Virus record (IMG/VR): IMGVR_UViG_3300003690_000002
Location: 1 to 64,000 of that record
Length of the DNA stretch: 64,000 nt
Strand: one strand, 5' to 3'
Origin: a virus
The notes below the pieces were generated by a model. It saw only the letters and a list, made by a program, of their open reading frames with translations. It was not told the origin of the DNA and did not search any database. Below are positions 31,012-57,547 of the stretch, piece by piece. The translations under genes were made by a program, and so were the position numbers. Each line of letters begins with the position of its first letter. Within the stretch, counting starts at the first letter, position 1.

Positions 31012-31016
31012 ATCAC

Positions 31017-31286: not shown

Positions 31287-31288
31287 AT

Positions 31289-32221: not shown

Positions 32222-32230
32222 ACTACTATA

Positions 32231-32259
32231 ATAGTATCAAAAATGATCTAAAAAGTAAA
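32231..32259 (-). promoter_or_regulatory. Sigma70-type promoter for the primase operon
   Basis: TTTACT-N17-TACTAT on the minus strand, ending 10 nt upstream of the primase ATG. Confidence 0.45.
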
Positions 32260-32269
32260 GAAATTAATG

Positions 32270-32828: not shown

Positions 32829-34037
32829 TTAAAAGTCTAATTTTAATTTAAACGTATATTCATCATTTTCTTTTTTACGAAGAGGTGTAGCTAGCTTAGC
32901 TATAGCAATTAAGTTTCTATTTTCATCATAAACTCCAATTTTACTTATATAAGTTTGTTTAACAAAACTTGAGCTATAGCCAGAATATGAACTACTTTCT
33001 ATATTTTTAATAGTAGTGCTTCCTGTTTCTGAATATGTAAAACTGCTTGTTTCTGTAGTTAAAGATTGTCCCTGTGCAACGTATGTCATGTTGCTTGAAT
33101 GATTTAGTTTTCCTCTTGGTGCGTGTGCGAACATTGTAACGGTGGGAATATAGCTTGTTCCTTTAAAAGATAAACTAAAACTTGAAGAAGCTGCCGCCGC
33201 AGTGCCAGATATTGTTTGCGCAAAATATGTCCACTTTGGTGCTTCGACTGATGATATCCCCGACCCCGATATGTATATGTCATTTGATTGTCCCGATGAA
33301 AGATCCCAGCTTCCTGTGAGAAAAATAAACCCTTCATTATATAATACGACACCTGCAACAGAACCTGGTCTATTTGAGCCAGTCGTCTCAATTAATTCCC
33401 CATTCCCATTTTTATCCTGAAGTTCTCCCAGCAAGGTTCCTGTTAAATAAAACTTTAAATTTACTGAACCTTTTTTAATCATGGAGCCATAAAATATAGA
33501 TGGTATACTTATTAATCCAACCTCTTGTGTTGATTTGTCCCACCCCCGACCTATAGATGACGAATATGCATAATGTGGTGTTAATGGTTTATAAAAATTT
33601 AATGTATTTCTTAATGCTTTAATATATCGCCTAGTAGTATCTGATGTAAAAAACAACTCTTTTGTAATATTGGCTACCATCGGATAACTTCCAGTGATTT
33701 CATCACCATAGGCGAAATCGGAATTAAAACTACCTTTCGAAACTGTGGAAAAAGAGGTTAAACTTCCCTGTTTTGTGACAAAAGGGTATACTAGTGTTTT
33801 AGTCCCCACTCCGGTAGATGGGTTGTATAAATGACCGATGGAATCTCTATTGATGTTTATCTCATGTAAACTAACTGCTCCGGCTTGAGCCATAAGTGAA
33901 GATGAATTGTATGTACCGCTTATATTATATTTATTATTATAATAAGTTGAACCACTATAAAAATAAAATTCTAATCTCGGGTACGCTTTTATACGATTAT
34001 GAAAAATATCATTTTTTTTAAACTTATAATAGGGCAT
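32829..34037 (-). CDS. Baseplate/tail structural protein, paralogue of 34105-35235
   Basis: Shares IKKG, NxSSNxTY and the C-terminal YISKIGVYDENRNLIAIAKLATPLRK...LKLDF with its neighbour. Confidence 0.6.
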   Translation of the reverse strand: MPYYKFKKNDIFHNRIKAYPRLEFYFYSGSTYYNNKYNISGTYNSSSLMAQAGAVSLHEININRDSIGHLYNPSTGVGTKTLVYPFVTKQGSLTSFSTVSKGSFNSDFAYGDEITGSYPMVANITKELFFTSDTTRRYIKALRNTLNFYKPLTPHYAYSSSIGRGWDKSTQEVGLISIPSIFYGSMIKKGSVNLKFYLTGTLLGELQDKNGNGELIETTGSNRPGSVAGVVLYNEGFIFLTGSWDLSSGQSNDIYISGSGISSVEAPKWTYFAQTISGTAAAASSSFSLSFKGTSYIPTVTMFAHAPRGKLNHSSNMTYVAQGQSLTTETSSFTYSETGSTTIKNIESSSYSGYSSSFVKQTYISKIGVYDENRNLIAIAKLATPLRKKENDEYTFKLKLDF

Positions 34038-34080
34038 GCCACCATTTCCAAATATCTACTTGTGTTATTATATGTTATTA

Positions 34081-34088
34081 TAATTAGT
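34081..34088 (-). promoter_or_regulatory. Putative late promoter motif ACTAATTA
   Basis: Intergenic, 44 nt upstream of the 402-aa gene. Confidence 0.45.
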
Positions 34089-34104
34089 TAGTTTATAAAA
34101 TTGT

Positions 34105-35235
34105 TTAATAATCTAATCTAACACGAAGTGTTAATTCAGTATTTGGATCTTTTTTGAGCGGCTCGCTCACTTTTGCAACAGCAAGCAATTCATTATCTGC
34201 AGAATACATACCAATTGATGTAATATACGATACTGGCATATCACTTGTCGTGTTCTTTACTCTAAGCTGACTTGCGGTAAGATAAGTCGGGTTAGAACTA
34301 TAATTAAATTCATTGTGATTTGCTCTGCAAAAATAAATTGTTGAATTAAGCTCAGTCGTATTATTAAAAGCAATATTATGAATTCGATTCCGCAATCCAT
34401 CTGCGATATCTGTTATATTGGCACCGGTTATAACAGCTGCCATTGAAGAAGTATCATATGTTGCCCCTGCTGTGCCCCACTGAGAACTTGTTGAGTGGAC
34501 ATTAAGAAATGCCTCCGAAGAGTGCGATGCTGAAAACGCAGCAGTGGGAACAACTATAATTCCTGCTTGATAAAATATTAACCCAAGACCGCTACCTTCT
34601 ACAATATCTGCTACCACCGAAGATGTATATAGAATACCAAATTCTCCGGCTGGAGAAGTGGTTCGAAACTCATTTGCCGCATTTGTATCATATAAAGTTT
34701 TCAAATGAGGTCCAATATCACCGCTACCTGGTGATGCGGTACGGCTCCAAGCAGCATTAACATCAAATGGTATGCCCCCTGTATTAAAACCTATACTAAA
34801 AGTGCCTTTCTTAATTTCATCTTTTGTAAGAAGTCGAGAAAAGTTTACAAAATGAGTGTTTACAAACTTGCCTCCTGCTTGAGTCAAATCACCATCTGCG
34901 TCAAATTGTTGTATTCCTCCAGTATGATCATGACCCATCAAAACTTGTGCCATTTGATTGTATATATTTATCTTTTTGTTATTTTGTGGATTACCGACAT
35001 CCTGCAACAAAGAGCTAGAATGATAACCAAAGGTTATATCAAAAATATGATTTGCAGAAGAACTTAGATATGGATAATCATAAACAGATTCAAACATTCC
35101 ATGTGAATATTTTTTAATGTTTGCTTCGGCATAGGTTCCTGAGCCGATTGTTCCTGTAATTGGTATCGCCTCATGTAAAAGTGTTTTCGTAGATGTTCTA
35201 TCTGTATTTAAAAATGTTTTAAACGTTGTCGCCAT
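34105..35235 (-). CDS. Baseplate/tail structural protein, paralogue of 32829-34037
   Basis: C-terminal YITSIGMYSADNELLAVAKVSEPLKK...VRLDY. Confidence 0.6.
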   Translation of the reverse strand: MATTFKTFLNTDRTSTKTLLHEAIPITGTIGSGTYAEANIKKYSHGMFESVYDYPYLSSSANHIFDITFGYHSSSLLQDVGNPQNNKKINIYNQMAQVLMGHDHTGGIQQFDADGDLTQAGGKFVNTHFVNFSRLLTKDEIKKGTFSIGFNTGGIPFDVNAAWSRTASPGSGDIGPHLKTLYDTNAANEFRTTSPAGEFGILYTSSVVADIVEGSGLGLIFYQAGIIVVPTAAFSASHSSEAFLNVHSTSSQWGTAGATYDTSSMAAVITGANITDIADGLRNRIHNIAFNNTTELNSTIYFCRANHNEFNYSSNPTYLTASQLRVKNTTSDMPVSYITSIGMYSADNELLAVAKVSEPLKKDPNTELTLRVRLDY

Positions 35236-35255
35236 AGTTTATCCTTTAATTTTTC

Positions 35256-36203
35256 TTAATATTTTTTAATATATCGTATAGGAACATCAATTGAGTACCC
35301 AGTCGTAGCTCCTGAAATTTTTACAATCGTATCAATATAATAAACATTTGTGCCTGAAAATGTTGTTGTATCTGTTCCGCCGAGTTGAGTAAATAAATAA
35401 GTGCTTGTATTTAACTCAACAGAGGCTCGTACTTTAAATGTCATATATGTCCCTCTAGGTCCAGCTATGACCTGATCGGCTCCCCCTTCGGTTGCGCTGC
35501 TGCCATCTCCTGTTTCTGAATTATTATATACTAATCCGCTAGTCCCTAGTGAAAGAAAATAACTTGCAATGTTGTCATCATCAATAAATGATATCGGTGC
35601 GCCATTGCCAGCGATGTCGACAATACTGCCTAATCTATTATCCATTTCAACAATATATTGTCGCTCTTCTAAATCTGCATCAATTTGAAATTTTGGAGAA
35701 ATAGCTGTTGTGTCAAGCCCTTGATCAAGTCTTATATATGATACTGCCCCTGTGGCTCCTGGAGCTTCGCCGTTTAATACTCCATTAGTGCTGTTGCCTT
35801 TTACGTTTGCGTCGCCATATGTCTCTTGGTCAACACAAACAACAAATGTGCTCAAAGTAGAATGTCTTTCCGCTGCGCTGACATTGTCGGTCCCGGTAGT
35901 TCCATATATTTTAAGAACTGGAAGATATAATAAATTTGTGCGTGGAATAGAGATTAACTTAGATTTCATTGTCGAAGTGTTATTTGTAAATGCTTCCAAT
36001 ATCGGCGTTTGCAAAATCTCCAAGTCATAATATGCACTACCGCTCGAATGAGACTTATTATATGTACCATAATCAATTTCGTCATCACCAAAAGCGTATT
36101 TTGCGATCTTAAAAGAACCGTCGCCTTTTGCTAATCGAAATCGTCCGGTATCTGTTAACACTGCATCTAAAATAATATCACCAGAATTGTCCAAAAATGC
36201 CAT
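35256..36203 (-). CDS. Baseplate/tail structural protein with fibre-attachment-like N-terminus
   Basis: MAFLDNSGDIILDAVLTDTGRFRLAKGDGSFKIAKYAFGDDEIDY. Confidence 0.6.
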   Translation of the reverse strand: MAFLDNSGDIILDAVLTDTGRFRLAKGDGSFKIAKYAFGDDEIDYGTYNKSHSSGSAYYDLEILQTPILEAFTNNTSTMKSKLISIPRTNLLYLPVLKIYGTTGTDNVSAAERHSTLSTFVVCVDQETYGDANVKGNSTNGVLNGEAPGATGAVSYIRLDQGLDTTAISPKFQIDADLEERQYIVEMDNRLGSIVDIAGNGAPISFIDDDNIASYFLSLGTSGLVYNNSETGDGSSATEGGADQVIAGPRGTYMTFKVRASVELNTSTYLFTQLGGTDTTTFSGTNVYYIDTIVKISGATTGYSIDVPIRYIKKY

Positions 36204-36225
36204 AATAAGTTCCTTTTTTCTTTAA

Positions 36226-36233
36226 TAATTAGT
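36226..36233 (-). promoter_or_regulatory. Putative late promoter motif ACTAATTA
   Basis: 23 nt upstream of the 315-aa gene. Confidence 0.5.
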
Positions 36234-36234
36234 A

Positions 36235-39153
36235 TTATATTGTTGTTTTCGTACTACCATCTTCATTTTTTATTATTTCTTTTTGTCTTGTTTTAAAAAT
36301 GAGATTAAAATTTAATTTTCGCCCAGTTGATTTTGATGTAATTATAAATTTAAATTTCTGATCCCACACTTTTTCTCCCGCCACTATTCCAGGCATTATA
36401 GAATCCGGAACAACCCTAATATTTGGCGGCACCCTCTTTGGGGAGTCAACAATGGCGTCGTCAAGTAGGGTTTGACCCAGAGAAGGAAATATTTGAATAT
36501 ATTTTTTCATTGTCTTGGCTGGTTGTGAGTCTTTTCGTCTTTTTTCTTCTTCAAGATCTAAAATCTTCACACTTAAATATGCAGTGTGTGTTGCGCCTGC
36601 TTGGATCGCATCGGGCGGGGGTGAATTATCAACCAATTCAACTTCATATATCACTGTTGGGTTAGAAAAGAATCCATGTGAATCTCTAGTCCTAAATGTA
36701 TAATAATATTTTTTATTTGTTTCTTGAATTATATCTACAGTTGCGTTATACATTGGCGATAAAAGTCTTCCCGTCTCTGCAAAATCTTCATACTCAGTCG
36801 GTTTAATGTCGGTTTTAAAAATTTCAAACCCACCAATAGAGTTGCTTCCCAATATTGGATCGTCTGATTTAAATTTTATTTTCTCTGCTGATTTAAATAG
36901 AAGCCCAGTTTTATCATCATATATGGTACCGCCTTGTTGATTTAATCTTATTTTGTTTATAGCCTCTTCGTCTTCTTTATTTATTATAATTGGCTTAGCG
37001 GACATTTCACCCGTCGTGTCATTAAATGTTATTAATACTCTATCATTTTTGTCTTTATATGGAATCATTGCAACTTCTGGCGTGAGAGGTGGTTTGCTGA
37101 CAATAAGCTTATTATAAAATGAATAATACGGAACTTCAAATATTTTAACAGAAGGTCTTGTTGTAACATTAAAATTCGCAAGATGTGGAGTACCCTTGCT
37201 TTCTCCGTTAACGAAAGATACGTCACCGTACTTATATTCTCTTCCATATACCAATTGAAAAGCCACTATATTATATTTATATGTTTCATTGAACCTTACC
37301 TGCGTATCAATATATCGAAATACATCAACATCGTTCGAATTGGGGATGTAAAAACTCTGTATATGCTGTCCGCCGAGGTCTAATTTATCAATCCTATAAC
37401 ATATTGTTTCAGAAAATGCCTTTTTCTCGCCAAGCATCATCTCTCTATATGATATTCGATGTTCTCTTACTTTTTCTTCTTTTTTGGCTTTGAACATTAT
37501 TGGAAATATTTGTTGAAAAAACTTAATCTTTTCACCACTTTCAGATCCTGGCTCTTTCGTTGGGTCAAGAAAAGTAATAGGTCCTCCTTCTCCCATCGCA
37601 TCAGTAACATCATCCCATGTTGCCGGTCCGCCTAACCACATCAACCAGTCATCAAAATCCCAATATGTTCTAGTGTCCCCTTTGCTTAGGGTAAGCTCGT
37701 TTGCAAGCTTGGTCGTCGAGGTAGTTTCACTTCCGTATGATTCGATTGTTTGTAGTGTTTCTGTGTTTTGTTCCCCGTCTTGTGGTGCATTTGTGCTCGT
37801 ATAAGCAATAAATGTGTCCGTGGCAACATCGTATTCTCCTTTTTGTATAAAAGGTCGTTTAATTAATGAAGTGGTGTCCATTGTGCCGATGAACCCTGTT
37901 GACCATGGCGTGAGATGTTTTGGATATAGCGTTAAATAAGTAGTTAATAATTTACTCAACCCTGTCTTTTTAATAAGATCAGAAAATTCATTCGCACCTG
38001 TTGAAAACTCAATATCAACATACATAGGAAAACTTCCTCTGGTGTCAATATAATCTGTTAAAAGATTAATATCTGTTAATGTAAAACAAATATTCGTAAA
38101 TGAATTCGATATGTTCTCATATTCTGGTTTTAACTTTTGACCCAGATGAGATATTATAGTTAATCCATTTGGTTGAGTGTTTCCTTTCATTGTCTCTATA
38201 AGCAGTTTATGAACTATTGGCCATTTCTTAAAATAGTGATTAAAATTTAAATTTCTTGTTGCAACTGCGTCGATAACTTCGCCAGTTTCAGGCTTAGTAA
38301 CAGGTTCTATTTTTATATCTGAAAGACCAGACGAACCACCAATACCAGTGTCAACCTCTAAATTAAACAATGTTGTATGCTTCCAGAGGTTTTGTTGATA
38401 AATTGTCCATTTTGGATTGCCAATTTTAATTGTTTCTGTGTTTGGACCGGTATCGTTGATGGAGACAGTAGTGCTGAATATTTTTTCTTTGTCTGGCATG
38501 AGTTCTTGAGCCATTATTGCATATAGATTTGGTAACCATTTGACTGATATCTGGTTAGAATTAATATACTGTTCATAAAAAAGCGCCGTATGGTTATAAA
38601 CTGCTTCACATTTTGCATATATGGGTCTTCCTGGTAAATCTGTGTATCTATTAATTTCGCTAATAGAATATGGTACAGGAATTTCAATTGTATGGTCAGC
38701 AAACCACTGATTTGTTGCCACATCTGCATTAACAAATGCCTTAAACTGTTCAAAAGTTGGATGTTCGTGTTGAAGTCCAAGTTCTGCACTAAATAACTTC
38801 ATTGATTTTAATGTTACTTCTGCTGATCCAATGTTTGTTTCATGATTCCATGTATCTTGAGTGATCTCATCAGCTTTAGAAAAATCTACATTATATCCTT
38901 TGCTTTGACCGGTGGCACCTCCCTGCTCAGTTCCTGCTGTGTTTTTGGCAGCAGGGTCGGTATTTCCCCATTTATAATCAGATGGTCCCGTGCCGTTATT
39001 ATATATAAAATAACAAAAGCCATTATTATATCGAAATCTATCCCTGACTACATCACCTTGAGGGTTAAGAACTGTGTTCGCGTTCTTACCCCCTGTCGAG
39101 GTGAAGAGTTCAACTAATAAATTTTCTGGTGAGAAAATTACCGTTTTAGACAT
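36235..39153 (-). CDS. Large hypothetical protein with FN3-like signatures, probable virion protein
   Basis: 972 aa; FRYIDTQVRFNETYKYNIVA and NKKYYYTFRTRD...FSNP resemble fibronectin type III strand patterns. Confidence 0.55.
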   Translation of the reverse strand: MSKTVIFSPENLLVELFTSTGGKNANTVLNPQGDVVRDRFRYNNGFCYFIYNNGTGPSDYKWGNTDPAAKNTAGTEQGGATGQSKGYNVDFSKADEITQDTWNHETNIGSAEVTLKSMKLFSAELGLQHEHPTFEQFKAFVNADVATNQWFADHTIEIPVPYSISEINRYTDLPGRPIYAKCEAVYNHTALFYEQYINSNQISVKWLPNLYAIMAQELMPDKEKIFSTTVSINDTGPNTETIKIGNPKWTIYQQNLWKHTTLFNLEVDTGIGGSSGLSDIKIEPVTKPETGEVIDAVATRNLNFNHYFKKWPIVHKLLIETMKGNTQPNGLTIISHLGQKLKPEYENISNSFTNICFTLTDINLLTDYIDTRGSFPMYVDIEFSTGANEFSDLIKKTGLSKLLTTYLTLYPKHLTPWSTGFIGTMDTTSLIKRPFIQKGEYDVATDTFIAYTSTNAPQDGEQNTETLQTIESYGSETTSTTKLANELTLSKGDTRTYWDFDDWLMWLGGPATWDDVTDAMGEGGPITFLDPTKEPGSESGEKIKFFQQIFPIMFKAKKEEKVREHRISYREMMLGEKKAFSETICYRIDKLDLGGQHIQSFYIPNSNDVDVFRYIDTQVRFNETYKYNIVAFQLVYGREYKYGDVSFVNGESKGTPHLANFNVTTRPSVKIFEVPYYSFYNKLIVSKPPLTPEVAMIPYKDKNDRVLITFNDTTGEMSAKPIIINKEDEEAINKIRLNQQGGTIYDDKTGLLFKSAEKIKFKSDDPILGSNSIGGFEIFKTDIKPTEYEDFAETGRLLSPMYNATVDIIQETNKKYYYTFRTRDSHGFFSNPTVIYEVELVDNSPPPDAIQAGATHTAYLSVKILDLEEEKRRKDSQPAKTMKKYIQIFPSLGQTLLDDAIVDSPKRVPPNIRVVPDSIMPGIVAGEKVWDQKFKFIITSKSTGRKLNFNLIFKTRQKEIIKNEDGSTKTTI

Positions 39154-39167
39154 ATATTAACACTCCT

Positions 39168-42100
39168 TTAACCATATGTGCCACCACCGCCACCGCCACC
39201 CATCGTGCCTGCTCCACCACCGACAGTGCCCACAGTCTGCCCAGAGGCTACAGTGACTGCCGTTGTACTATATTCAATTTGCGATCCATCTATTAAGTCT
39301 GTAAATTCCTTAATCTGGGCAGTTATCTTCGTCATCATGCTTTCAAACGCCACGCTCTTAGAGCCAGCCATGCCTGTCATCACGGTCTCAAGAATAAATA
39401 TTTCATTAAAAGTTGGCAAGTCCAGACTTTTAGAATTTGTTGACATCGGAGGTGGTAATAAGTTATTAATATATTGTTTCAATCTGCAGACCATAATATT
39501 TCCGCTGTTATTTTCAAATTCTTGGAAATTTAAAGGCACCCAAACTGGTCGTTGGAGAGATCTTCCATTTGTTGTTTTCGCAAAACCAGTCAAGACCTCT
39601 ACTCTCATTATTCTTCCATAGTTAAAATAAAACGCACCAGCGAGCGAAGCGTGCTGCATTGGATCTGGTGGGGGGTTCACGTGTGGAGAGTCCTGGGGCG
39701 ACATATTATCAAGCTTTAACCGTTGTGTGATTTTTGAATCCTCTTCCAACCCTGATGAAAACCAATTATAATTGACGCTTTCGGGATCCGTACTTGATAA
39801 AAATAATGATTTAAGCTGATTTGGTAAATTTATTATAAAATTATTTAAAAATCTATTGGGGGGTACTGTACTAGAAAAAGGCTCTATATCCGCTGTATCA
39901 CTTGATGGTGGCAGTTTTGCTTTAATTGCTGTCAATATATTGTTTGTACTGTTTAAATTAAATTGTTGAATTGTTGCTATAGCTGGTGATTGGAATTTAT
40001 TTCCTAATGCTAATGGAGTGGCTGAGAATTCTGTACCAAATATTTTATCTTTTTGGAGCGTCAATAGCAACGAGTTTGGATTAGAATCTTCTTCTTTGGA
40101 TTTTTGCGAGTCTAAATTTAAGTCATCAAATTCATCTAATATAAAATCTTCTTGTAAAAACTTTGATTCTTTTCCTACATATTCACCTACACCTATCTTT
40201 TGATTGTTTGTTACCAGAAAATCATCTATAATAGCAAAAGAATTTGCAATTTTTGTAACTGGAGTTATCATCATGTTTTCATCTGCACTCATTGCGACTA
40301 AAGGTGCTTTTATGTTTTGTTGGTCTGTGGTTAATTTAGATTTTGAACTAAGTCCGAAATTTGGAATTGGTATTTGTGGAGACTTTTTTAGTGAATTATA
40401 GATCATAATTTTAGTTACAAGTTTTGAATAAACATCTGGGTCAAAAGCTTCTTTGCCGGATGGAACATCAACAATTTCATGCGGATCATCAAAAGATGGT
40501 AACGATACAGCAATTGGAGATAAATATGTTAAAGCTGTATTATTAAGACTATCATTTAATGAAGTAATATTTTCTGGGTGTGCTGCTAATGATGGATCAA
40601 CCTTATAATTTTTAAAATATTTTAAAACTTCTTTAGTTACTCTTTTAAAATATTGTGAGGCAGTATATGTAACAAGTCCACTACTCGCAAGACCATGGTT
40701 GGCGCCGCCGCCGCCTTGAAACATAGACCCAAAATAATTATATCCAGCTTGACTTCCGGCAACGTTAAGATTAGATTTAAAAATTGTTGGAAATGTTTTT
40801 TCAATTTTAAAAATTCTTCGGGGTGATTTGACCATTGTGCCAGAACTAGTCTTTCCGGTACGCTTAAATGTTGAAGTGGTTGATGCTTCATCCCCAATTT
40901 GATCTTCTAGGACTTTTAAAACTTTTGCCATTAGGTTTTCAAATAAAAGTAATGTTTCTATAGTCGCCGTCTTGGGATGTGCCATTAACCAAAAAATATT
41001 TAAAAGCGGGGAGAGGGCGCCCTCCACGCCGGGGGGGACGCCAAAAACATATTCCATTGTTGAATGTAATGTAGCTACTGCTGTCATGGCGCGTGCTGCG
41101 TAAGAGTTTACACCCACTCCGGCAGCTCTTTTAATAAAATCTTGAGTAAAAGTGTTTGTTTTATAATCATAGTTGCCCCCCGACATTTTGATAGTTGCAT
41201 CATGAAAAGATTCCTCTTCGATTTTCTTTGAATATTCCCAATCTTCTATGTGTGGACTTTGTAATGTGTTTTTTAATTGTTCAGTTGTTTGCCGAAAAGA
41301 TGGTATTTTTGCTTCTTCTATTAAACTTTTCCAACCGCTGTATGCATCTCGCAACTCCATTAGTTGTTCACTTAACCATTGAATAGACCCATCTTGCATT
41401 TCTAATTCAACTATATATTGATAATTGCTCTCTCCTCCATTTTTTGCAGAAGAATCAATTCCTTGAAAATAAATAATTTGATCAGTAGTGGTGGGAGACG
41501 AAAATGTCATATCAAATGAAAGATTATCTACAGAGATTAAAGGTTGCTCTGGTGGAGTTTTTTCCACATCTGGATTAAGTAGCGCTATAAGCTCTGGTAT
41601 TTGATTTTTATCGAGAGAGTATGCGCCAGATTTATTAACAGCTTGTGTAAGTTCGTTTTCTGTAACTTCTTCTCTAACTTTCTTTCTAAACAATTTTATA
41701 TCTATTATATGAGATTGTCCCATTATACTAGCCGCCACGGCATTGTTAATATCTAAAAATTTTGGATATCTCATATGGTCTCTCATAATATTATAAATGT
41801 CTATTCCAAAAAAGAATCTACAATTACCATTTTGATCTTTTGACGAAAAGAAATCTGTAAAATAATTATTTTTTAATACCTTATGACAAGGAGATGGATT
41901 GCGAATCGCAACATCAGGATTACTAAGTTCTTTTTCAAGTATTGTTTTAATTTGATCAAATTTAATAGTTTTATTAAATATTTTATTTAAAGATCTCATA
42001 TCTTGGATTTTAAAATTTGGAGTTTTCTTTGCTATCAAAGATTCTTCTGTCCCAGGGGTAGAAGTAGAATCTGCACTAGTCATCCATTTCCCAGATGGCA

Positions 42101-43052
42101 GTTGATGGACCTGCCCTGTCCATATTCTACCAACACTATCATAAAAAGTTGTAGAGAAAGGGTTAACCTTCCCATCGCTAATAACAACCTCAGAAGATAT
42201 TTTTCCATTAATAGCTTTAACATTCTGTGGTCCGCTATTCATAAAGCTTAATTGTAAATCATATAACTCTGCTAAATCTGAAAAGTCTATGAAGGCAAAA
42301 ACAAAATATGACAAATGAGAGGTGCTACTTGATATCGAACTTAATGGTGCGTTTGTCCATTCGAATAATATATGTTGAAACTTATTCCCGTCGTCATCAT
42401 ATTCAATTATGCCTTTAAAAGCATCTGGTTTTTTTTCATCAGGTTCTTCTTCGAGCCTATCTCTCAAAAGAAATCTCTCTTCTTGTAACATACCGATGGG
42501 TCCTGAATACATAATTTCCATATACTCGTCACTACCTATAATCAAACTTCCTGCTAATATTTTTTGTGTGGTTTCAGCAGAAGTACATTGAACTACTCTT
42601 ATTTTTAAAAAATCAAGCAGTCCGTGCCCGTCGCCTAATAATACATTTGAAAGCCATGAAGCTGCAGAGTTTCCATTCATTTTTTCTTTTAAAGATATTT
42701 GAAGCGTTGTTCCTATATCTTCTGTATTATAGAGCGCTGGATTGTCGGAAATAAAAGTTTCCATAGCTTTATTCTCGCCCATGCTTAAAACACCTTTTTT
42801 GTGCAATAGTTTATAAGCTTCGTCTGCAAATTTATTTATAGTTTCATCTGCTGATATTGTAATGCCTTCATTCGCGATGCCCCCCATATTAAAACCCCCC
42901 ACTGTTTTGTTGCGTATATGGGGATTGTTTGCGGACGATTGAGGAGATTTTGCAAATGTAGAAGATTGACTAGTCGTTTCTAATATAATCTTTTTTATAT
43001 TAACATCAGGGGTAAAATCACCTAAAAAACTTTTTTGATTAATAGCAACCAT
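39168..43052 (-). CDS. Large hypothetical protein, probable virion protein
   Basis: About 1294 aa; the ATG at 43052 overlaps the upstream TAA (TAATG) and is the likelier start than 43061; poly-Gly C-terminus. Confidence 0.7.
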   Translation of the reverse strand: MVAINQKSFLGDFTPDVNIKKIILETTSQSSTFAKSPQSSANNPHIRNKTVGGFNMGGIANEGITISADETINKFADEAYKLLHKKGVLSMGENKAMETFISDNPALYNTEDIGTTLQISLKEKMNGNSAASWLSNVLLGDGHGLLDFLKIRVVQCTSAETTQKILAGSLIIGSDEYMEIMYSGPIGMLQEERFLLRDRLEEEPDEKKPDAFKGIIEYDDDGNKFQHILFEWTNAPLSSISSSTSHLSYFVFAFIDFSDLAELYDLQLSFMNSGPQNVKAINGKISSEVVISDGKVNPFSTTFYDSVGRIWTGQVHQLPSGKWMTSADSTSTPGTEESLIAKKTPNFKIQDMRSLNKIFNKTIKFDQIKTILEKELSNPDVAIRNPSPCHKVLKNNYFTDFFSSKDQNGNCRFFFGIDIYNIMRDHMRYPKFLDINNAVAASIMGQSHIIDIKLFRKKVREEVTENELTQAVNKSGAYSLDKNQIPELIALLNPDVEKTPPEQPLISVDNLSFDMTFSSPTTTDQIIYFQGIDSSAKNGGESNYQYIVELEMQDGSIQWLSEQLMELRDAYSGWKSLIEEAKIPSFRQTTEQLKNTLQSPHIEDWEYSKKIEEESFHDATIKMSGGNYDYKTNTFTQDFIKRAAGVGVNSYAARAMTAVATLHSTMEYVFGVPPGVEGALSPLLNIFWLMAHPKTATIETLLLFENLMAKVLKVLEDQIGDEASTTSTFKRTGKTSSGTMVKSPRRIFKIEKTFPTIFKSNLNVAGSQAGYNYFGSMFQGGGGANHGLASSGLVTYTASQYFKRVTKEVLKYFKNYKVDPSLAAHPENITSLNDSLNNTALTYLSPIAVSLPSFDDPHEIVDVPSGKEAFDPDVYSKLVTKIMIYNSLKKSPQIPIPNFGLSSKSKLTTDQQNIKAPLVAMSADENMMITPVTKIANSFAIIDDFLVTNNQKIGVGEYVGKESKFLQEDFILDEFDDLNLDSQKSKEEDSNPNSLLLTLQKDKIFGTEFSATPLALGNKFQSPAIATIQQFNLNSTNNILTAIKAKLPPSSDTADIEPFSSTVPPNRFLNNFIINLPNQLKSLFLSSTDPESVNYNWFSSGLEEDSKITQRLKLDNMSPQDSPHVNPPPDPMQHASLAGAFYFNYGRIMRVEVLTGFAKTTNGRSLQRPVWVPLNFQEFENNSGNIMVCRLKQYINNLLPPPMSTNSKSLDLPTFNEIFILETVMTGMAGSKSVAFESMMTKITAQIKEFTDLIDGSQIEYSTTAVTVASGQTVGTVGGGAGTMGGGGGGGTYG

Positions 43053-44068
43053 TAATCGCACTCCCGAATTTGTTCTGGTGGTACAAGTATGTCAGATATC
43101 CCTGCCAGGGTCTCATCAGGGCAATCAAGGATATCATCAATGAAAACGTCCTCAGCACCACGACCTTTGACAGCAGCGCATAAAAACTCTTCATCAATTT
43201 CTTTGTCTACAAAAACATTAAAATAATATTCAACATAATTAGAATCAACGTCCATAAATTCTCCGCCAGCAAAATCATCTATATCTGAAATATATTCTTT
43301 ATCTCTTGCAAAATACAACGGTAATAATATCTCTTTTGTTGTCGCACTACCTGCTCCTTGATTAGATTCAATTATTTGTGTCTCGACTTTGCAAACTTCA
43401 ATTTCAAAATTATCTTTGTCAAACATAACATTTCTTTCATTAATTTGAAGTAACAAAGAATTTCCCTGGATAAAAACACCTGCCATTTCGGCATAAGCTT
43501 CTGGGCTTGAGACTGGAATTTTATCAACACTTTGCTGCCAAGTGTTTGGACTAAAGTCTAAGAATGCCTCTTTATCAACTGTAATATCATAATAAATTGT
43601 TGAATTCAACTGGGGGGTTCTTAAATTAAAGTTCGATCCAGTTGTAAAATTTGCGGATGAAGATAGATCAGCATCTAAATATTCTATAATCCATTGTGGA
43701 TTATATGGATTTCCAAGCTCTGATGTACCCAGCGGTGATGCTAGTGCATAGTGTTTTTCTGCCGTTGGTTGAATCGTAAATATTTCAGATAACTTTTTTT
43801 CATTTGAAAAATAATGTTCATTAGTTTGATGTACTCGGCTCTCGATTGAAGAAAAAACATATTGAGTTTTTGGGCGTAGAGCTTCTTGGATTCGTGGTTT
43901 TGCTTCATTTTGTTCTTCTATGATACCTGTATGTTGGTTATCGTATATAATATCATCATCAAAGAAGGCATAGTATAGAGGCTTAAGTTTGCCCAGTGAT
44001 AATAAATACTTTCCATGTTGAGTTAGCTGTAAATCTATAACGTCTTCTTTTCTATTAAAAAATCCCAT
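43052..44068 (-). CDS. Structural protein, N-terminal paralogue of 35256-36203
   Basis: MGFFNRKEDVIDLQLTQHGKYLLSLGKLKPLYYAFFDDDIIYD. Confidence 0.6.
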   Translation of the reverse strand: MGFFNRKEDVIDLQLTQHGKYLLSLGKLKPLYYAFFDDDIIYDNQHTGIIEEQNEAKPRIQEALRPKTQYVFSSIESRVHQTNEHYFSNEKKLSEIFTIQPTAEKHYALASPLGTSELGNPYNPQWIIEYLDADLSSSANFTTGSNFNLRTPQLNSTIYYDITVDKEAFLDFSPNTWQQSVDKIPVSSPEAYAEMAGVFIQGNSLLLQINERNVMFDKDNFEIEVCKVETQIIESNQGAGSATTKEILLPLYFARDKEYISDIDDFAGGEFMDVDSNYVEYYFNVFVDKEIDEEFLCAAVKGRGAEDVFIDDILDCPDETLAGISDILVPPEQIRECD

Positions 44069-44095: not shown

Positions 44096-47000
44096 TCATT
44101 CGTCGTCTTCTTTAATTAGTGTATCTTGAACAGCTTTTTTATCTTCAAGTTGTGACGTTGCGATCTTCGCTGCTTTTGAGCTTGCTATCTGCGCTTCTGT
44201 TGGCGATGTGCTTATTGTAAATGCCTCTTTCGGAACAGTAGATAACGATTCATAAGGACTAACTTGTTCTGTAGTTGATGGAATCGTTACCCTTGCATCT
44301 ATTTTGACTAATTCTACTAACGAAAAATAATCATATGGCCAGTTATAACTATATGGTAATTCACCCTCTATTGTAGAGGTTTTTCCACCCTGTTCAAATT
44401 TAAACTTAAATTTTGCATCATCTTTTGAATCAGATGTTAATTTATAGTAGTTACTTTTTCCTCTTTGCTTAACTTTAAATACCATCCATCTTAACTTACT
44501 TGGCACTCTTCCATCTGTTGATTTATAAAATTCATTTGCCAAAAGTTGGTGATTTACTGTGGCGTGAGCTGTTTTAAATGGGGTTTTTGGATCCATTCCC
44601 ATATCTGGTGGTAAGTTCTGCCACATGTCTGCTAAGTCTTTTTGGGTAAATTTAACTCCAAAATTAAAAAGATACATCGCAATAGGATTTATATCTGGAT
44701 ATGTAAGAAAATCAAACTGGGGAGGGAATACATAATTTTTCATTGAATTGACCATGTGTCGTATAGACACTCCAGGTCTTTTTGCCTCTTCTATATCTTC
44801 AAGTTTGGTTGCACCTACATTAAGTGCTATAGCCTCTTTTATCATAGCTCTATCAAGAGTAAAAAACTTCTTCTCAACGCCTTCTTCAACAAAAGGTATT
44901 GCCACAACAGCTTCCAAAACTGTTTTCATTTCTGCGACTGTACCAAGTTTATATGATTTTTTTGTATCAAATCCGACAAGATCTGCTAAAGATTTATAGT
45001 TCGGGTATACTCCGATATCAGTTGGATCTATAATATCCATAAATACTCCTTTATTGGATCCAGTTGGAATTTGTCCATATTGGTGCCACATTCCTTTGGC
45101 AATCGAAGCAGTGCCATATTGAGGTAAAGTAACAATTGAGCCGCTAAAATCTAATATTGGACATTCCCATTTGGGTTGAATAGCCCATCGTTGGTTATCG
45201 GCAGAAGAAACTGAAGTTATATTTCCATCTGCATCAAATGTGGGGCTTGGCTCATTTGACAATTGGAGAAAATTTAAACACGAATCAGGTTTCATTTCAG
45301 GTGAAGGATCTCCCTTGTGCGCAGCATAGGGCGAGGCAAACGTATTGTGCACATCCGTACCGTTATCCTGAACCCAATAGTGAGACATCCATTTGGTTTC
45401 TTTAATCCGCCATGGGATTATATTGCAATTATTCATAATTTCTGTCAAGGTTAACCTAAGAGGTTTATCGGGCATGCCTTCTATTGGACCGCCGATTGCC
45501 CCTTTTGCTAGCGCGCCGGTTATTGTAAGTGTAAATTTGAGTCTTGATGACCCATTATAATAAGGTGGTGTGTGCGATGAATATGATGCACTAGTAGTCC
45601 CCTGGATGGTTAAGGAATTTGCTGGTCCGATATCGTCGCTGAGCAGCGAACCTACTGCATAAGGTGGTCCGAATGAAGAACCATAACTATCAATACTTGC
45701 TGTTCTTTCATACATTTTTATTGTTGGCGGATTATAAATAAGATTTGATTCGCGTTGTTCGAGATTCTTCAAAGCAACAGATGGTCGCCACGGAGTATAA
45801 TCTGAAAAACCGTCGCCACCGCCGTTGACTATCTCTGAATTTCTAATTGTGCCATGGCTAAGCTCTACATGCATCACATATGTTGCACCAGATACAACAT
45901 TAAAATAGTTTGGATCTTTTTCCGGAGCCGAAAGCGCTGTTGTCAGTTTTCCACCTGCTAAGAAAAAATCTGGGACTGCTGCTAGGAAGTTATGCATTCC
46001 CAATGTATATAATTGATTGTGAGCTGCTTTGATGGAGGCTGTGCTGTCAATATGAGCATGGGGGTGTGGTTCTGCATCAACAATTAAAATTCCGCCATAT
46101 TTACTTGGATCAATTATTGCTTCAAATGGCATTCTATATCGAGGAAGGGTTTTAATTCTCGGTATACCAGCAACAACAACACCGCCCCGATCAGATTCGT
46201 AGCTATCATTTCTTGAACTGCCAGTAGTAACAAAAGAACCAGTATGAACTGGATAATCAACAGACATGCCAGATTTAATACTATTATATAATATCCCAGG
46301 AGCAAAAAATGGCGTAAGTGCAGTTCTAAAACTTTTCTGAGTGCCGCTTAATTCCACCGTTGGACCATATGATTCTGAAAATAAAGTAGCTAATTGAAGC
46401 GTTCTTAAGGCAGGATAAAATCCATCATATGGTAAAAATTTCATGTAAGCCTTGCATTGCAAACCAAGGTAGTGAGGCTCGTCTGAAACGCTAACATGAT
46501 CATCATTTATTTGATCGAAATATTTTAAAAACTCTGTATTACTGTAAGTTGTATAAAAATTAGCCTCGCCGCTACTACTAATAGAAGAGCCTGTCAGCGA
46601 TAAAAATTTTGGATTTTCTGCTCTAAAGTTTCCGCCGTGTTCATTAATATAAAATGGCATATGCTCACTTATTCTAAATTCGGGAATAATTGTATAATCT
46701 TTACCACAGCGTCTCATTTGATCAGCCCATGTATTATAATTTTCTGGGAACGGATCTTTCCCTGCTTGCGCGCCTGCTTCCCAAAGAGTATCATTAGTAA
46801 ATATTTCTGCACGTGCAGATTGAGAGGTATAAACTTCACCAAAAGTTGATGCAATTGGTCTTGCGTAAAGTGCCCCATATGGTTTCGAGGCTGGTGTTGC
46901 CTGCCAATCAGAATCAGAACCAATATTCCCTGAAAAAACTTGATAATTATTTAATAATTCGCCCGCTCCAGTAAACCCACCACTCAAAATATCAGTGGAG

Positions 47001-50000
47001 GCTGTTAAAAACCCAAGTCTTGCATCTAATGGCCATCTGCTTTGTCTAGCAATAGTCAATCCTTGTGAGTTTGTTATACTAGCGGTTACTAAATCTGTTG
47101 CTCTTCCGTTTCCGGGGTTTTCATATGGTAATTCGACTCGTTGAGTACCATGTGTGGTGCCTCTATCTTTTCTCCAGAACGGCGCAACAAACATCTCTCG
47201 ACTTCTAGCTTTATTAAAATAAGTATATTTTTCTTTTGGATAGATTGTTTCTCGATATAATAATTTTCCAAACTTTTTAATTGGATTTGATTCTTTTGGC
47301 AATGTGATAAGATCGGGATCGTATAATGAAAGAAGCTTGTAGTATTTTTGATTTAGATTTGGTGAAGTAATGCCTAGCTTGTTATTTAATTCGCAGTTTA
47401 CAAATTTTACTAAATTATTAGCATAAGTGTGTCTAACTGACAGTGGTTGAAGCTTGCCATTCTCTGTCTCAATTACAAACGTTTGGCTAATTGGCTTAAA
47501 TTTTGATGTACAAACTGATTCTGAATAATGCGTAAAAGTATCACCTCTAATTGCTTTAGATGATGTAAGCACATTAGAGGACTTCCCCTTTCCATCGTGG
47601 GCAGATTTAATAATAAAAGTTTTTGTTTTTGGGGCGTCTTGTATTGATAAGATATTCTTTTTTCTGTGGAGACGTGCGACTGGATGCTCTCCAGTTCTAA
47701 TTTGCTTCCACGATGGATATCCATAGTTGCCTCCACGGTGGTGTAATAAACCGTTTAAACCACACATGCCTTCGTCGTAATTCACGTAATCTAAAGACAA
47801 TGAATAGCGAGGCTTTACCGCATCAGAAATTGATAAATAATAATTAGGTCCGATGGTAGTAGACGGTGAGTAAATGGTATGATTTCCCAGAATGCCGCTT
47901 ATATGACTAGCTGCGAGGCTGCGACCGTCAATTGAAGCTTCTGGCGGGTATCCAAGAGTGTTCTGAGATGCTGATATAGGCTCATGCATGACCAAATTCA
48001 TGCCGACAAAATCAACTTTTATTCTATGGTAATATGCGGCGCCGTATTGTAAGGCATTTGCCGTAAGCAATCGACTGCCCCCTTGACCCACTGCGGCCAC
48101 TTCGCTCTCACTAATGAATGTAATACTAGTCGATGCCCCGCCAGCATTGCTTCGATCAGGCTCTTCATAACCAAAAAATGGTAGATTCCCAGACATCGAA
48201 GCAGTAATCCATGCATATTGTTTGTCACTTCTTGGAATTTGATGTTGAACCCAATAATTATCATGGACCGTGGCAGTTAAATATGCCTCGCCACCGTAGA
48301 AAGGATCGCCAGAAAATATACTAGATCCAGTATGAGATCCAGAAAGCACTATCCGCTTTCTTGAATTTCTATTAGTTTTATAAAATGATGCGCTACTATG
48401 ATAAGTTGTTTCAGAAACGGATCCACTAGTGCCAGGAAAATATGTTTGATCAGCCAAGAAATAACTTGCTGAATTATGTTGGTCACTAAAATATCCAAAT
48501 TGTTTAACATGGTCTGTATATAATAGTCTAAGAGGTTCTCTGACTGTAAAGTTTCTATAATTTAGCATATTTTGTACAGCGTATTCTTCTGATTCAACAT
48601 CAAGATAACCTCTTGACATAACTTCCGGACCGCCAGGGGCAGAAAATCTTTCTACAAAAACAAACTTATTGGTTCCAGATACAGCCCGGTTAGGAAGTGT
48701 AAAATCGAAAACACCAGAAACGGCAGCAGATTCGACAATTTCTAAAGTAAAACCTTCATTTTTCACAAAAGCTCTATTGTTTGTTCTTCTTCCCGATGTA
48801 TGAAGTATCTCATAATCATGCATATAATTTCCAATTTGCGTCTCATATCTTACACCAGTTGAACCACTTGAACCTGTTGTTTGTCGAATATTTCTAATAT
48901 TCACTGGTCTTTTTGCAGTCCCATCTCTATAGAATGATGCTCTTGGAAGAGTAGAATCGAAACTTCCTATTGGATCACCCTCTCTAAAAGCGGGATTAAT
49001 TACGGAGATGTGATGATTAAGACCAATTCTAAATGCTTCGGGTCTATTATCTTTGGCATCCATTGCGCCGGAATTTATATTAATATGTCGATGTTGATTT
49101 CCTCCGACAAACTTTTCGGTAAATGGACCCTGCATTGGCGTTTCGTAGTCTGGTCCATATATGTCAGCGTGGATATTTGTTATATCATACGTAAACATAG
49201 GTCCGGTGGATGCAGTAGAAGGTTGGTAGCCATAATTGGTAAATCTCGATGACAAATAACTTGGCGAAATTGAAGAACTATGAATATTAAACGGATATAA
49301 AAGATCGCCCTTATATTTTTTATTGTCCTTATGTATTGTTGCTCCAAATCTGGCTTTTGTTTGATCATTTTTATACAAATCATAAGCATCAGTACAATCT
49401 TGAAATAATTCTAAATCTTGACCATATAATGGCGCTGCTGAACCCGTAAAAGAGCGACTAACTTGTGTATACAAAACTGGTTTCAATGAAGAGCTTCCAA
49501 ATCCTTGAAGCGTTTTATAAAAGTCCGGTTTCTTATTGTTAGAATAGTTAATACCGCCGTGTAAAACTTGTGTTTTTTTAACAAATAATTTGTATGGTTT
49601 GGAAAACTTTCTTAATGCGTATGAAGATCCTTCATAGTTATCAACATCATAAAAACTGCTCGATAGATTTGGACCACTCCTCGAAACTACAGTTGTAAAA
49701 GTTTTTAATATAGAGTTTTTATCAGCATCAATATTAGAATCTCCAGACGACAAGGAGGCATCACTTCGCTCTGCACGATCTTTCCACCAAAGACAATTAT
49801 TATATTGTGCTTGTTCGTCTGTTCCACCAGTTAAAGTTGCTGGTGATGATGACGCGCCGTTTTCAACCATAACCCCTATAATATCAGTAAACACAATGCC
49901 ATTGCCAGTTATACCTAGTTGAGTCGCGGTTATAGTTATCCGATTGGAAGTTCCTTCTGCGGCGGTAATCCCTGCGATGCCGTTAGTCACATCCCCGGCG

Positions 50001-57136: not shown

Positions 57137-57144
57137 TAATTAGT
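57137..57144 (-). promoter_or_regulatory. Putative late promoter motif ACTAATTA
   Basis: Overlaps the gp25-like stop codon, 21 nt upstream of the gp6-like start. Confidence 0.4.
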
Positions 57145-57547
57145 TAAAAGATACAGGTAAGTCTATATCTAATATTTGAGGTTTATCTAATGGTACAAGC
57201 AAATAACGTATTCTAATATATAAAGTATTTATTGCTAACGTCTCATATCCAGCATCTTCTGATGTAAAAAAATTCATATCTATTATTTTTATAAATGGTA
57301 AATATTTTGTAATTTGCTGATTAATTTTCGCATATATCTCTCCCTCTATCTCATTTCCCTTGTGTTTAAATAAATAGTGCTTAAGACCTACGCCAAAATC
57401 TGGATTCATGACTCTTTCACCTGGGCTTGTTAAAAGTAACATTTTAAAATTTTGCTGTACAGTCTCTTCAAAATTTTTATTTAACTCATAGGCACCATCA
57501 GTTTCATCAGTCGCCAATGGGAGCTTGGGAGAAATTCCTATAGCCAT
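57140..57547 (-). CDS. gp25: Baseplate wedge / sheath initiator (T4 gp25 / P2 gpW-like)
   Basis: VQQNFKMLLLTSPGERVMNPDFGVGLKHYLF...INQQITKYLPFI. Confidence 0.92.
   Translation of the reverse strand: MAIGISPKLPLATDETDGAYELNKNFEETVQQNFKMLLLTSPGERVMNPDFGVGLKHYLFKHKGNEIEGEIYAKINQQITKYLPFIKIIDMNFFTSEDAGYETLAINTLYIRIRYLLVPLDKPQILDIDLPVSFN

What the first reader, a model, noticed from the sequence alone, without database searches (positions are those of the whole stretch)
32829..44068. Tail-fibre attachment domain apparently split into N-half and C-half genes, each duplicated
The N-terminal baseplate-binding domain of P2 gpH-type fibres (DUF3751) starts with LT..G...LA......I..MA.GD and ends with I.E.GL.D..G.LIAVA....K. 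Here the first pattern opens two paralogues (315 aa: LTDTGRFRLAKG...KYAFGDDEIDY; 338 aa: LTQHGKYLLSLG...YYAFFDDDIIY). The second pattern closes two other paralogues (376 aa: YITSIGMYSADNELLAVAKVSEPLKK; 402 aa: YISKIGVYDENRNLIAIAKLATPLRK). They lie downstream of gpW/gp25-, gpJ/gp6- and gpI/gp7-like genes, where gpH would be. This suggests heteromeric adaptors assembled by strand complementation, giving a branched platform for docking several large appendages (972, 1297 and >2117 aa proteins).
Basis: inference. Interest (0 to 1): 0.7.

Follow-up and report, generated by a model that had tools for sequence, protein, structure and literature searches.

The report
Two-piece tail-fibre docking domain in phage
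In this abundant marine T4-like phage, the two parts of the small domain that phage P2 uses to fix its tail fibre to the baseplate lie on separate, always-neighbouring structural proteins, which probably plug into each other; that binding could not be tested here.

Summary
All four quoted motifs are present at the stated coordinates. Profile-profile comparison links them to the two parts of DUF3751, the N-terminal adaptor domain of P2 gpH. The last ~95 residues of p376 and p402 match DUF3751 columns 68-129 (hhalign 94.9%, E 4.8e-8). The first ~45 residues of p315 match columns 5-46 (73%, E 3.1e-5). Reversed controls score 0.1-0.2%, but no protein reaches Pfam's cut-off.

The "paralogues" share only these end modules. 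A gene with the N-module sits directly next to genes with the C-module in 80 related marine contigs. The same holds in four distant phages: Flavobacterium phage immuto, Microcystis phage Mel-JY01, Rhodothermus phage RM378 and a 484-kb uncultured phage. Copy ratios vary (2:2, 1:2, 1:5, 2:1, 1:2), so fixed pairs are unlikely.

In AlphaFold2 monomer models, p315's highly conserved N-module is poorly defined. p376 folds well, and its end domain also uses its own N-terminus.

The best reading is a plug-and-socket, akin to the published "beads on a rope" fibres and the proposed gpI-gpH attachment in P2. Direct binding is untested because the complex predictor was unavailable. The "branched platform for giant appendages" has no support.

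First-stage notes from this scan describe the same pattern in several related genomes.

The parts
35256..36203 (-). p315 (P0003). It has the N-module (residues 1-~95, nt ~35919-36203), which is the most conserved part, followed by an Ig-like beta-sandwich (residues 91-315).
   Evidence: Translation. Family of over 8000 clusters, 57-63% identical. Per-block conservation is 0.98-0.82 over the first 100 residues. AF2: residues 91-315 have pLDDT ~90, residues 1-90 have 36-62. hhalign of residues 12-49 against DUF3751 columns 5-46: 73%. The C-terminal domain gives only generic Ig/pilin-like matches, Z <= 6.
43052..44068 (-). p338 (P0004). A second protein headed by a diverged N-module (residues 1-~68, nt ~43865-44068); the rest is unrelated to p315.
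   Evidence: Family profile against the p315 family: 49%, E 1.8e-4, 65 columns. Found with the joint N-module model at E 1.3e-26 (the model includes this sequence). Conserved at this position in 71 related loci. On its own it shows no similarity to DUF3751.
34105..35235 (-). p376 (P0002). It carries the C-module (residues ~283-376, nt 34108-34389). The AF2 model has an end domain (residues ~1-30 plus ~285-376) and an inserted domain (~20-296).
   Evidence: 3032 clusters at 50% identity with E <= 1e-3. AF2 pLDDT 82.9, pTM 0.80. Domain ranges come from VIA rows. hhalign against DUF3751: 88.7-94.9%.
32829..34037 (-). p402 (P0001). A second protein ending in the C-module (residues ~286-402, nt 32832-33182).
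   Evidence: Family hhalign against DUF3751: 81%, E 1.2e-5. Conserved full-length immediately after the p376 homologue in related loci.
57140..57547 (-). gp25/gpW-like baseplate wedge protein (context).
   Evidence: Pfam PF04965, E 1e-12.
55314..57116 (-). gp6/gpJ-like baseplate wedge protein (context).
   Evidence: PHROG 219 and 10646, 'baseplate wedge subunit'. About 30% identical to the Mel-JY01 and immuto homologues.
44096..53797 (-). 3233-aa protein at the gp7 position (context). The assignment rests on position only.
   Evidence: Residues 449-621 resemble the 1265-aa and 1336-aa proteins that follow gp6 in immuto and Mel-JY01. No Pfam or PHROG hit.
36235..43061 (-). p1297 (39168-43061) and p972 (36235-39153). 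Large conserved structural proteins lying between p338 and p315. Neither carries either module.
   Evidence: Gene order p338-p1297-p972-p315-p376-p402 is conserved in related loci. No N- or C-module hit. No Pfam or PHROG family.

Best explanation
The phage is a distant T4-type myovirus, and the four genes encode parts of its baseplate periphery. p376 and p402 end in a ~95-residue beta module homologous to the core of the P2 gpH adaptor domain (DUF3751). This would be the 'socket'. p315 and p338 begin with a ~45-95-residue strand-helix-strand segment that corresponds to the N-terminal part of the same domain. This would be the 'plug'.

Most likely the plug segment lies against or within the socket module of a neighbouring protein by beta-sheet completion. 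That would tie p315, and probably p338, to p376 and p402. The simplest unit is the conserved triad p315 + p376 + p402.

The principle is the one seen in 'beads on a rope' fibres, where an extended chain completes incomplete sandwiches of bead proteins. It is also proposed for P2, where the gpI tail inserts between gpH adaptor domains.

Shown: the module boundaries, their likeness to DUF3751, the strict gene adjacency, and the portability of the plug. Inferred: that plug and socket touch, and in what stoichiometry.
For: 1. The two modules cover consecutive parts of DUF3751. The N-module aligns to columns 5-46 (73%, E 3.1e-5). The C-module aligns to columns 68-129 (94.9%, E 4.8e-8) and to ~50-130 in a greedier alignment. 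Both similarities strengthen as more divergent members are added, and both vanish with reversed or shuffled controls.
2. Adjacency. In the 80 related IMG/VR loci, those that extend far enough downstream show an N-module gene followed by two C-module genes in the part of the tally printed. Both modules occur only in one cluster in immuto, Mel-JY01, RM378 and LR756508, although gp6 is only ~30% identical between those lineages that have a full-length match.
3. The modules are the most conserved parts of their proteins. The N-module is 46-50% identical to immuto and Mel-JY01, against ~30% for gp6.
4. In the AF2 monomer model the near-invariant N-module is not confidently folded (pLDDT 36-62), while the rest of p315 is at ~90. 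This is as expected of a segment that folds on a partner.
5. The first ~50 residues of the plug also head two fibre-like proteins (557 and 815 aa). One of them lies in a cluster with Peptidase_S74-type fibre genes. The plug therefore behaves as a portable anchor.
6. The C-module is conserved across phages of Flavobacterium, Microcystis and Rhodothermus, and at the ends of otherwise unrelated 591-954-aa Mel-JY01 proteins. This fits a virion-attachment module, not a receptor-binding one.
7. Published precedent for trans completion exists in Bas63 (PMC12609058), A1002/GP4 (PMC13730344) and the P2 preprint 10.64898/2026.09.14.750843.
8. The end domain of the p376 model gives weak matches to those bead proteins: Sf14 9c39_K Z 3.5, GP4 8jou_a Z 3.2, Bas63 9mt4_K Z 3.1.
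Against: - No direct test of binding was possible.
- The AF2 monomer model of p376 is confident (pTM 0.80). It appears to close its end domain with its own N-terminal strand (VIA ranges 1..376). C-module proteins also share an N-terminal motif of their own. So the socket may already be complete in cis.
- N:C gene ratios vary (2:2, 1:2, 1:5, 2:1, 1:2), which rules out simple one-to-one gene pairs.
- The N-module similarity rests on ~38 columns and reaches only 73%. The p338 family alone shows none.
- No protein reaches the Pfam DUF3751 cut-off.
- All structural matches are below Z 5 and could reflect only a common beta-sandwich arrangement.
- No DUF3751 structure was found in the PDB copy to compare with.
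Confidence: 0.45

Rival explanations
1. The two modules are independent attachment modules. Each fixes its protein to the conserved wedge (the gp6-like, 505-aa or 3233-aa proteins) but they do not touch each other. The socket domain of p376/p402 is a complete fold closed by the protein's own N-terminus. Adjacency would then reflect only the usual clustering of baseplate genes.
For: The AF2 model of p376 is confident as a monomer, and its end domain uses residues ~1-30 together with ~285-376. C-module proteins share their own N-terminal motif. Copy ratios do not match. Late structural genes are syntenic in any case.
Against: This does not explain why the two modules map to consecutive parts of one known domain. 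The own N-termini of C-module proteins show no similarity to the DUF3751 N-part (0.2%). In five lineages that have diverged deeply, the N-module gene lies beside a C-module gene rather than elsewhere in the baseplate block.
Confidence: 0.33
2. The plug is a rope, not half of a fold. The C-modules are complete DUF3751-like adaptor domains that pair as a p376/p402 heterodimer. The extended N-terminal ~95 residues of p315 thread between them as an extra strand. This is the role proposed for the gpI C-terminal extension between two gpH chains in P2, and for the collar rope in Bas63. The N-module's likeness to the DUF3751 N-part would then be secondary.
For: The triad of one N-module gene plus two C-module genes recurs here and in immuto and LR756508. 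The conserved N segment is long (~95 residues), which is more than the ~40 that align to DUF3751. See also the P2 preprint (10.64898/2026.09.14.750843) and the Bas63 paper (PMC12609058). The end domain of p376 gives weak bead-like structural matches.
Against: RM378 has two N-module genes and one C-module gene, and Mel-JY01 has one and five. The C-module lacks any detectable counterpart of DUF3751 columns 1-46 in cis. The structural matches are below Z 4.
Confidence: 0.15
3. The likeness to DUF3751 is convergent or due to chance, for example common beta-hairpin motifs. The C-module would be a distal tip, an oligomerisation knob or an assembly chaperone rather than a docking module.
For: No hit passes Pfam's cut-off. 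The aligned stretches are short. No solved DUF3751 structure was found for comparison.
Against: Two independent paralogue families both hit the same DUF3751 columns at 81-89%. The score rises to 95% with added diversity and falls to 0.1% when the alignment is reversed. The module is conserved across phages of unrelated hosts, unlike receptor-binding tips. There is no Peptidase_S74 or other chaperone signature.
Confidence: 0.07

Closest known systems
P2 gpH N-terminal adaptor domain (Pfam PF12571, Phage_tail_fib / DUF3751) and its proposed attachment to the gpI C-terminal extension (bioRxiv 10.64898/2026.09.14.750843)
   Same: Profile-level similarity of both modules to consecutive parts of the domain. 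Location in the baseplate gene block after gp25/gpW- and gp6/gpJ-like genes. Attachment by beta-sheet interaction with another chain is proposed for P2.
   Different: In P2 the whole domain is one N-terminal piece of a homotrimeric fibre. Here the N-part heads one set of proteins, while the core ends another set and sits at their C-terminus. Neither set consists of long fibres in this phage. The Pfam threshold is not met.
'Beads on a rope' fibres: the Bas63 collar rope with gp5 whiskers (PDB 9MT4; PMC12609058), Sf14 (9C39), GP4 Fiber-1 with its rope (8JOU), and the A1002 nozzle-rope with gp40/gp41 (PMC13730344)
   Same: The principle: an extended segment of one protein completes incomplete beta-sandwiches of small proteins encoded nearby. 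The end domain of the p376 model gives weak structural matches to these beads (Z 2.9-3.5).
   Different: Those assemblies sit at the neck or on podophage tails, use homodimeric beads, and have repetitive ropes. Here the location is the baseplate block of a T4-type phage, the 'beads' are 376-402-aa two-domain proteins, and the 'rope' has no evident repeats. No sequence similarity was detected.
T4 gp8 (baseplate wedge protein of 334 aa)
   Same: Similar size. Position after gp7. The termini look similar by eye.
   Different: A 49-sequence gp8 profile shows no similarity to any of the four families or to DUF3751 (hhalign below 0.4%). gp8 did not appear in the structure-search lists.

Membership tests
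Pfam PF12571 Phage_tail_fib (DUF3751) | Match to the curated HMM at or above the gathering cut-off (23 bits) | tested here: not met
   The best hit is 12 bits, E 0.019, on p376 residues 337-366. Searches gave no hit. Only 4 of 79 family members matched, at E >= 0.12.
Pfam PF12571 Phage_tail_fib (DUF3751) | Remote homology by profile-profile comparison | tested here: met
   C-module 94.9%, E 4.8e-8. N-module 73%, E 3.1e-5. Controls 0.1-0.3%.
Pfam PF12571 Phage_tail_fib (DUF3751) | The whole ~150-residue domain in one chain, at the N-terminus of a fibre protein | tested here: not met
   The N-part and the core are on different proteins, and the core is C-terminal.
Rope-and-bead fibre assemblies (GP4, Bas63, Sf14, A1002) | The bead protein has the incomplete-sandwich fold of Bas63 gp5 or GP4 Fiber-1 | tested here: inconclusive
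   9c39_K Z 3.5 (72 residues aligned, rmsd 3.8). 8jou_a Z 3.2 (77 residues, rmsd 3.5). 9mt4_K Z 3.1 (71 residues, rmsd 3.9). All are below the level at which a match is informative.
Rope-and-bead fibre assemblies (GP4, Bas63, Sf14, A1002) | A segment of another chain completes the bead's sandwich in trans | not testable with these tools
Indirect evidence only: the N-module has low pLDDT as a monomer.
T4 gp8 family | Sequence-profile or fold similarity to gp8 | tested here: inconclusive
   hhalign of a 49-sequence gp8 alignment against all four families and DUF3751 gave below 0.4%. gp8 is absent from the structure-search lists, which does not exclude it.
T4-type contractile-tail baseplate module | gp25- and gp6-like wedge genes directly upstream, within a T4-like structural gene set | tested here: met
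   gp25 by Pfam and gp6 by PHROG. T4-type portal, large terminase and major head protein.

The most novel reading that the evidence does not exclude
'Far-T4' phages (this abundant marine group, immuto, Mel-JY01, RM378 and a 484-kb phage) use a true split-domain connector. A DUF3751-type fold would be assembled from a plug on one protein and a socket on another. This would make a universal, exchangeable joint through which different baseplate proteins and fibres are mounted, with fibres carrying the plug in some phages and the socket in others. P2-type fibres would represent the fused form of the same joint.
Probability: 0.3. Interest if true: 0.7.

Novelty: new variant of a known kind. Interest (0 to 1): 0.55.

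Why it matters
The four protein families are very common in ocean metagenomes. Each of the two searched returned more than 8000 clusters, and the p376 family alone has 3032 clusters at 50% identity. All are annotated only as hypothetical.

If plug and socket do join, this would explain how a whole branch of T4-related phages mounts its peripheral baseplate proteins and fibres. It would tie the P2 fibre adaptor domain, for which no solved structure was found, to the recently described rope-and-bead principle. It would also give a simple rule, a plug or socket at a protein's end, for recognising virion-attached adhesins in uncultured phage genomes.

Three cultured phages (immuto, Mel-JY01, RM378) make it testable.

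Tried and rejected
- **Family libraries.** Pfam and PHROGs on all four proteins and the large neighbours gave nothing apart from gp25 and gp6. Pfam on ten distant homologues gave nothing.
- **PDB by sequence.** Profiles of both families, and of DUF3751 itself, gave no relevant hit. No solved DUF3751 structure was found.
- **Fold searches.** Foldseek against the PDB found no match with E <= 0.001 for either model. BFVD returned only uncharacterised homologues from uncultured phages. VIA-align found nothing above Z 4.7 for p376, or above Z 6.0 (generic Ig/pilin folds) for p315.
- **ESM Atlas look-ups.** Only unnamed viral clusters.
- **T4 gp8.** My own idea that p376/p402 are gp8 homologues, based on similar-looking termini, found no support in a 49-sequence gp8 profile.
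- **In-cis N-part.** The idea that the C-module proteins carry the DUF3751 N-part at their own N-terminus found no profile support (0.2%).
- **Fused N-module + C-module protein.** A search among longer proteins found only two plug-headed fibre-like proteins without the C-module. The search is weak for long proteins.
- **Tools unavailable.** The 'atlas' fold library was unavailable. The search for related loci with the DUF3751 alignment failed for lack of a conserved stretch.
Full report
**Context.** The window is the first 64 kb of a complete 186,398-bp virus record with direct terminal repeats. All genes of interest are on the minus strand. The phage is a distant T4-type myovirus. It has a gp25-like protein (Pfam PF04965, E 1e-12) and a gp6-like wedge protein (PHROG 219, E 1e-20). 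It also has a T4-type portal, large terminase and major head protein. Its nearest cultured relatives in the gp6-like protein are Microcystis phage Mel-JY01 and Flavobacterium phage immuto, at about 30% identity. In transcription order the block reads: gp25, gp6, p505, p3233, p338, p1297, p972, p315, p376, p402. A RuvC-like resolvase, a primase and a fused SbcCD-like nuclease follow. The end of the structural block is laid out the same way in Mel-JY01.

**The observation.** The four ORFs and all four quoted motifs are present. p402 and p376 are related only in their last ~115 residues (E 1e-11). p315 and p338 are related only in their first 50-65 residues (E 2e-4; family profiles 49%, E 1.8e-4). 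They are better described as two pairs of proteins that share an end module. Within the whole genome the C-module occurs only in p376 and p402, and the N-module only in p315 and p338.

**Is the likeness to DUF3751 real?** No protein reaches the Pfam threshold. The best hit is 12 bits on p376 residues 337-366, against a cut-off of 23. I built a 10-sequence alignment of gpH-type N-termini from P2 and nine diverse phages and compared profiles with hhalign.
- The p376 family aligns at residues 313-374 to DUF3751 columns 68-129 (88.7%, E 2.6e-6). The p402 family aligns independently to the same columns (81%, E 1.2e-5).
- Adding C-modules from immuto, Mel-JY01, RM378 and the 484-kb phage LR756508 raises this to 94.9%, E 4.8e-8.
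- The N-module scores only 12-17% with close relatives. With the homologues from immuto, Mel-JY01, LR756508 and the two from RM378 it reaches 73%, E 3.1e-5, aligning p315 residues 12-49 to columns 5-46.
- A reversed DUF3751 alignment gives 0.1-0.3%. None of 25 block-shuffles reached the real scores: 43.8 against a maximum of 27.5, 43.6 against 36.5, and 24.7 against 15.5.
- The two modules therefore map to consecutive, non-overlapping parts of one known domain.
- The C-module proteins' own N-termini show no likeness to the DUF3751 N-part (0.2%).

**Conservation and linkage.** All four families are conserved full-length in related uncultured phages. For the two searched directly (p315, p376), all 8000 scored candidates were significant. 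The p376 family has 3032 clusters at 50% identity with E <= 1e-3.
- In 80 IMG/VR loci retrieved through p315, the tally as printed shows a p376-type and then a p402-type gene directly downstream wherever the contig extends far enough. p338, p1297 and p972 homologues lie upstream.
- In four deeply divergent phages both modules also occur in a single cluster, with an N-module gene next to a C-module gene. Genome-wide N:C counts are 2:2 here, 1:2 in immuto, 1:5 in Mel-JY01, 2:1 in RM378 and 1:2 in LR756508.
- In Mel-JY01 the module ends two small proteins and three otherwise unrelated proteins of 954, 718 and 591 aa.
- The modules are the most conserved parts of their proteins. The p315 N-module is 46-50% identical to immuto and Mel-JY01, where gp6 is ~30%.
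- A search among longer proteins found two fibre-like proteins (557 and 815 aa) that begin with the first ~50 residues of the N-module and then switch to fibre repeats. One of them lies in a cluster with Peptidase_S74-type fibre genes. The plug is thus a portable N-terminal anchor.

**Structure.** AlphaFold2 with a 120-sequence alignment models p315 residues 91-315 confidently as an Ig-like sandwich. It leaves the near-invariant residues 1-90 at pLDDT 36-62. The sandwich has only generic matches, with Z at most 6.0.

p376, modelled with 79 diverse sequences, gives pLDDT 82.9 and pTM 0.80. The aligned ranges in the fold searches nevertheless fall into two groups, 1..376 and about 20..296. This indicates a small end domain built from the first ~30 residues plus the C-module, and an inserted domain.

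No solved structure matches well.
- The end domain gives weak matches to phage appendage proteins: phi812 baseplate 9euf_b (Z 4.2), Sf14 whisker 9c39_K (Z 3.5), GP4 8jou_a (Z 3.2) and Bas63 whisker 9mt4_K (Z 3.1).
- The inserted domain gives a weak match to the C-terminal part of T4 gp6, 3h2t_B (Z 4.2).
- All of these are below the level at which a match is informative.

**Comparison with what is known.** A 2026 preprint on P2 (10.64898/2026.09.14.750843) proposes that the gpH adaptor domain is held by beta-sheet interactions, with the gpI C-terminal extension lying between two gpH chains. It calls this a 'rope-like' interface and modelled it on GP4 entry 8JOU.

In Bas63 (PMC12609058), whisker monomers have an incomplete sandwich, and the collar's N-terminal rope runs through them and completes it. 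GP4 and A1002 (PMC13730344) use separate or fused ropes. Trans completion of small beta domains is thus an established way of hanging appendages on tailed phages, and the DUF3751 adaptor has been proposed to belong with it.

The arrangement here would be a new variant. The N-terminal element of the adaptor domain sits on one set of baseplate proteins, and the core sits at the C-terminus of another.

**Judgement.**
- The homology of the C-module to the DUF3751 core is likely (about 0.8).
- The homology of the N-module to the DUF3751 N-part is plausible (about 0.55).
- Direct plug-socket binding is the best single explanation, but it is unproven (0.45 in the split-fold form, plus 0.15 for the rope variant).
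- The main rival (0.33) is that both are independent wedge-attachment modules and that p376 closes its own end domain in cis.
- The variable N:C ratios argue against fixed heterodimer pairs. They fit a promiscuous joint, or a unit of one N-module protein and two C-module proteins.
- Nothing supports docking of the 972-, 1297- or >2117-aa proteins on these modules.
- The complex predictor was not available, so the decisive in-silico test was not run.

**Relation to the rest of the scan.** First-stage readers made the same observation on several related genomes. One follow-up (e1-5667337) judged a similar split docking domain supported. Those notes are leads only, not evidence. They gave me the Bas63 paper, which I read myself.

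Noticed in passing
window 53797-55314 (-): The 505-aa protein after gp6 has no Pfam or PHROG family. It shares conserved N- and C-terminal strings with the 386-aa (Mel-JY01), 369-aa (immuto) and 420-aa (LR756508) proteins at the same position, for example '...F/YF D..M..L.PE..Y.I.....' near the C-terminus. It is a conserved, unnamed wedge component.
   Followed up: partly
window 34105-35235 (-), residues ~20-296 of p376: The inserted domain of the p376 model gives its best, though weak, structural match to the C-terminal part of T4 gp6: 3h2t_B residues 483-629, Z 4.2, 111 residues aligned, rmsd 5.1. 5iv5_A and 5hx2_D also match. p376/p402 may be distant derivatives of wedge-ring proteins.
   Followed up: no
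L151 (LR756508.1) ~11990-12627: The N-module gene of the 484-kb uncultured phage has no ATG, GTG or TTG at the expected start. The conserved 'GYLQSEE...' sequence begins 39 codons upstream of the first standard start codon. This suggests an unusual start codon or a sequence error.
   Followed up: no
L016, L018, L023 (IMG/VR relatives), ~12100-12860: In some relatives the two C-module genes are separated by ~700 bp instead of ~20 bp. In LR756508 a 451-aa ORF lies between them. These look like inserted genes, perhaps homing endonucleases, inside the triad.
   Followed up: no
L152 78-2525 and L153 40-1713: Two metagenomic fibre-like proteins carry the first ~50 residues of the p315 plug. In one the plug is fused to FG-GAP-like sequence, in the other to 'ITLSDFTNDAGFL' repeats. 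Only the first contig has Peptidase_S74/Mtd_N fibre genes as neighbours. These are natural chimeras at the plug boundary.
   Followed up: partly
window 27853-32824 (-): The structural block ends directly against a RuvC-like resolvase (184 aa), a primase (310 aa) and a single-chain SbcD+SbcC-like nuclease of 1052 aa. Mel-JY01 has the same junction, with a GIY-YIG protein, a primase and a partly read 'AAA domain' protein that looks like the counterpart of the nuclease.
   Followed up: no
window 34105-35235 (-), residues 282-314: 34 of 79 p376-family members give a weak sub-threshold Pfam 'ig' hit on the 'NSTIYFCRANHNEFNY' stretch at the start of the C-module. This is probably only a Y-x-C beta-sandwich signature.
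   Followed up: no
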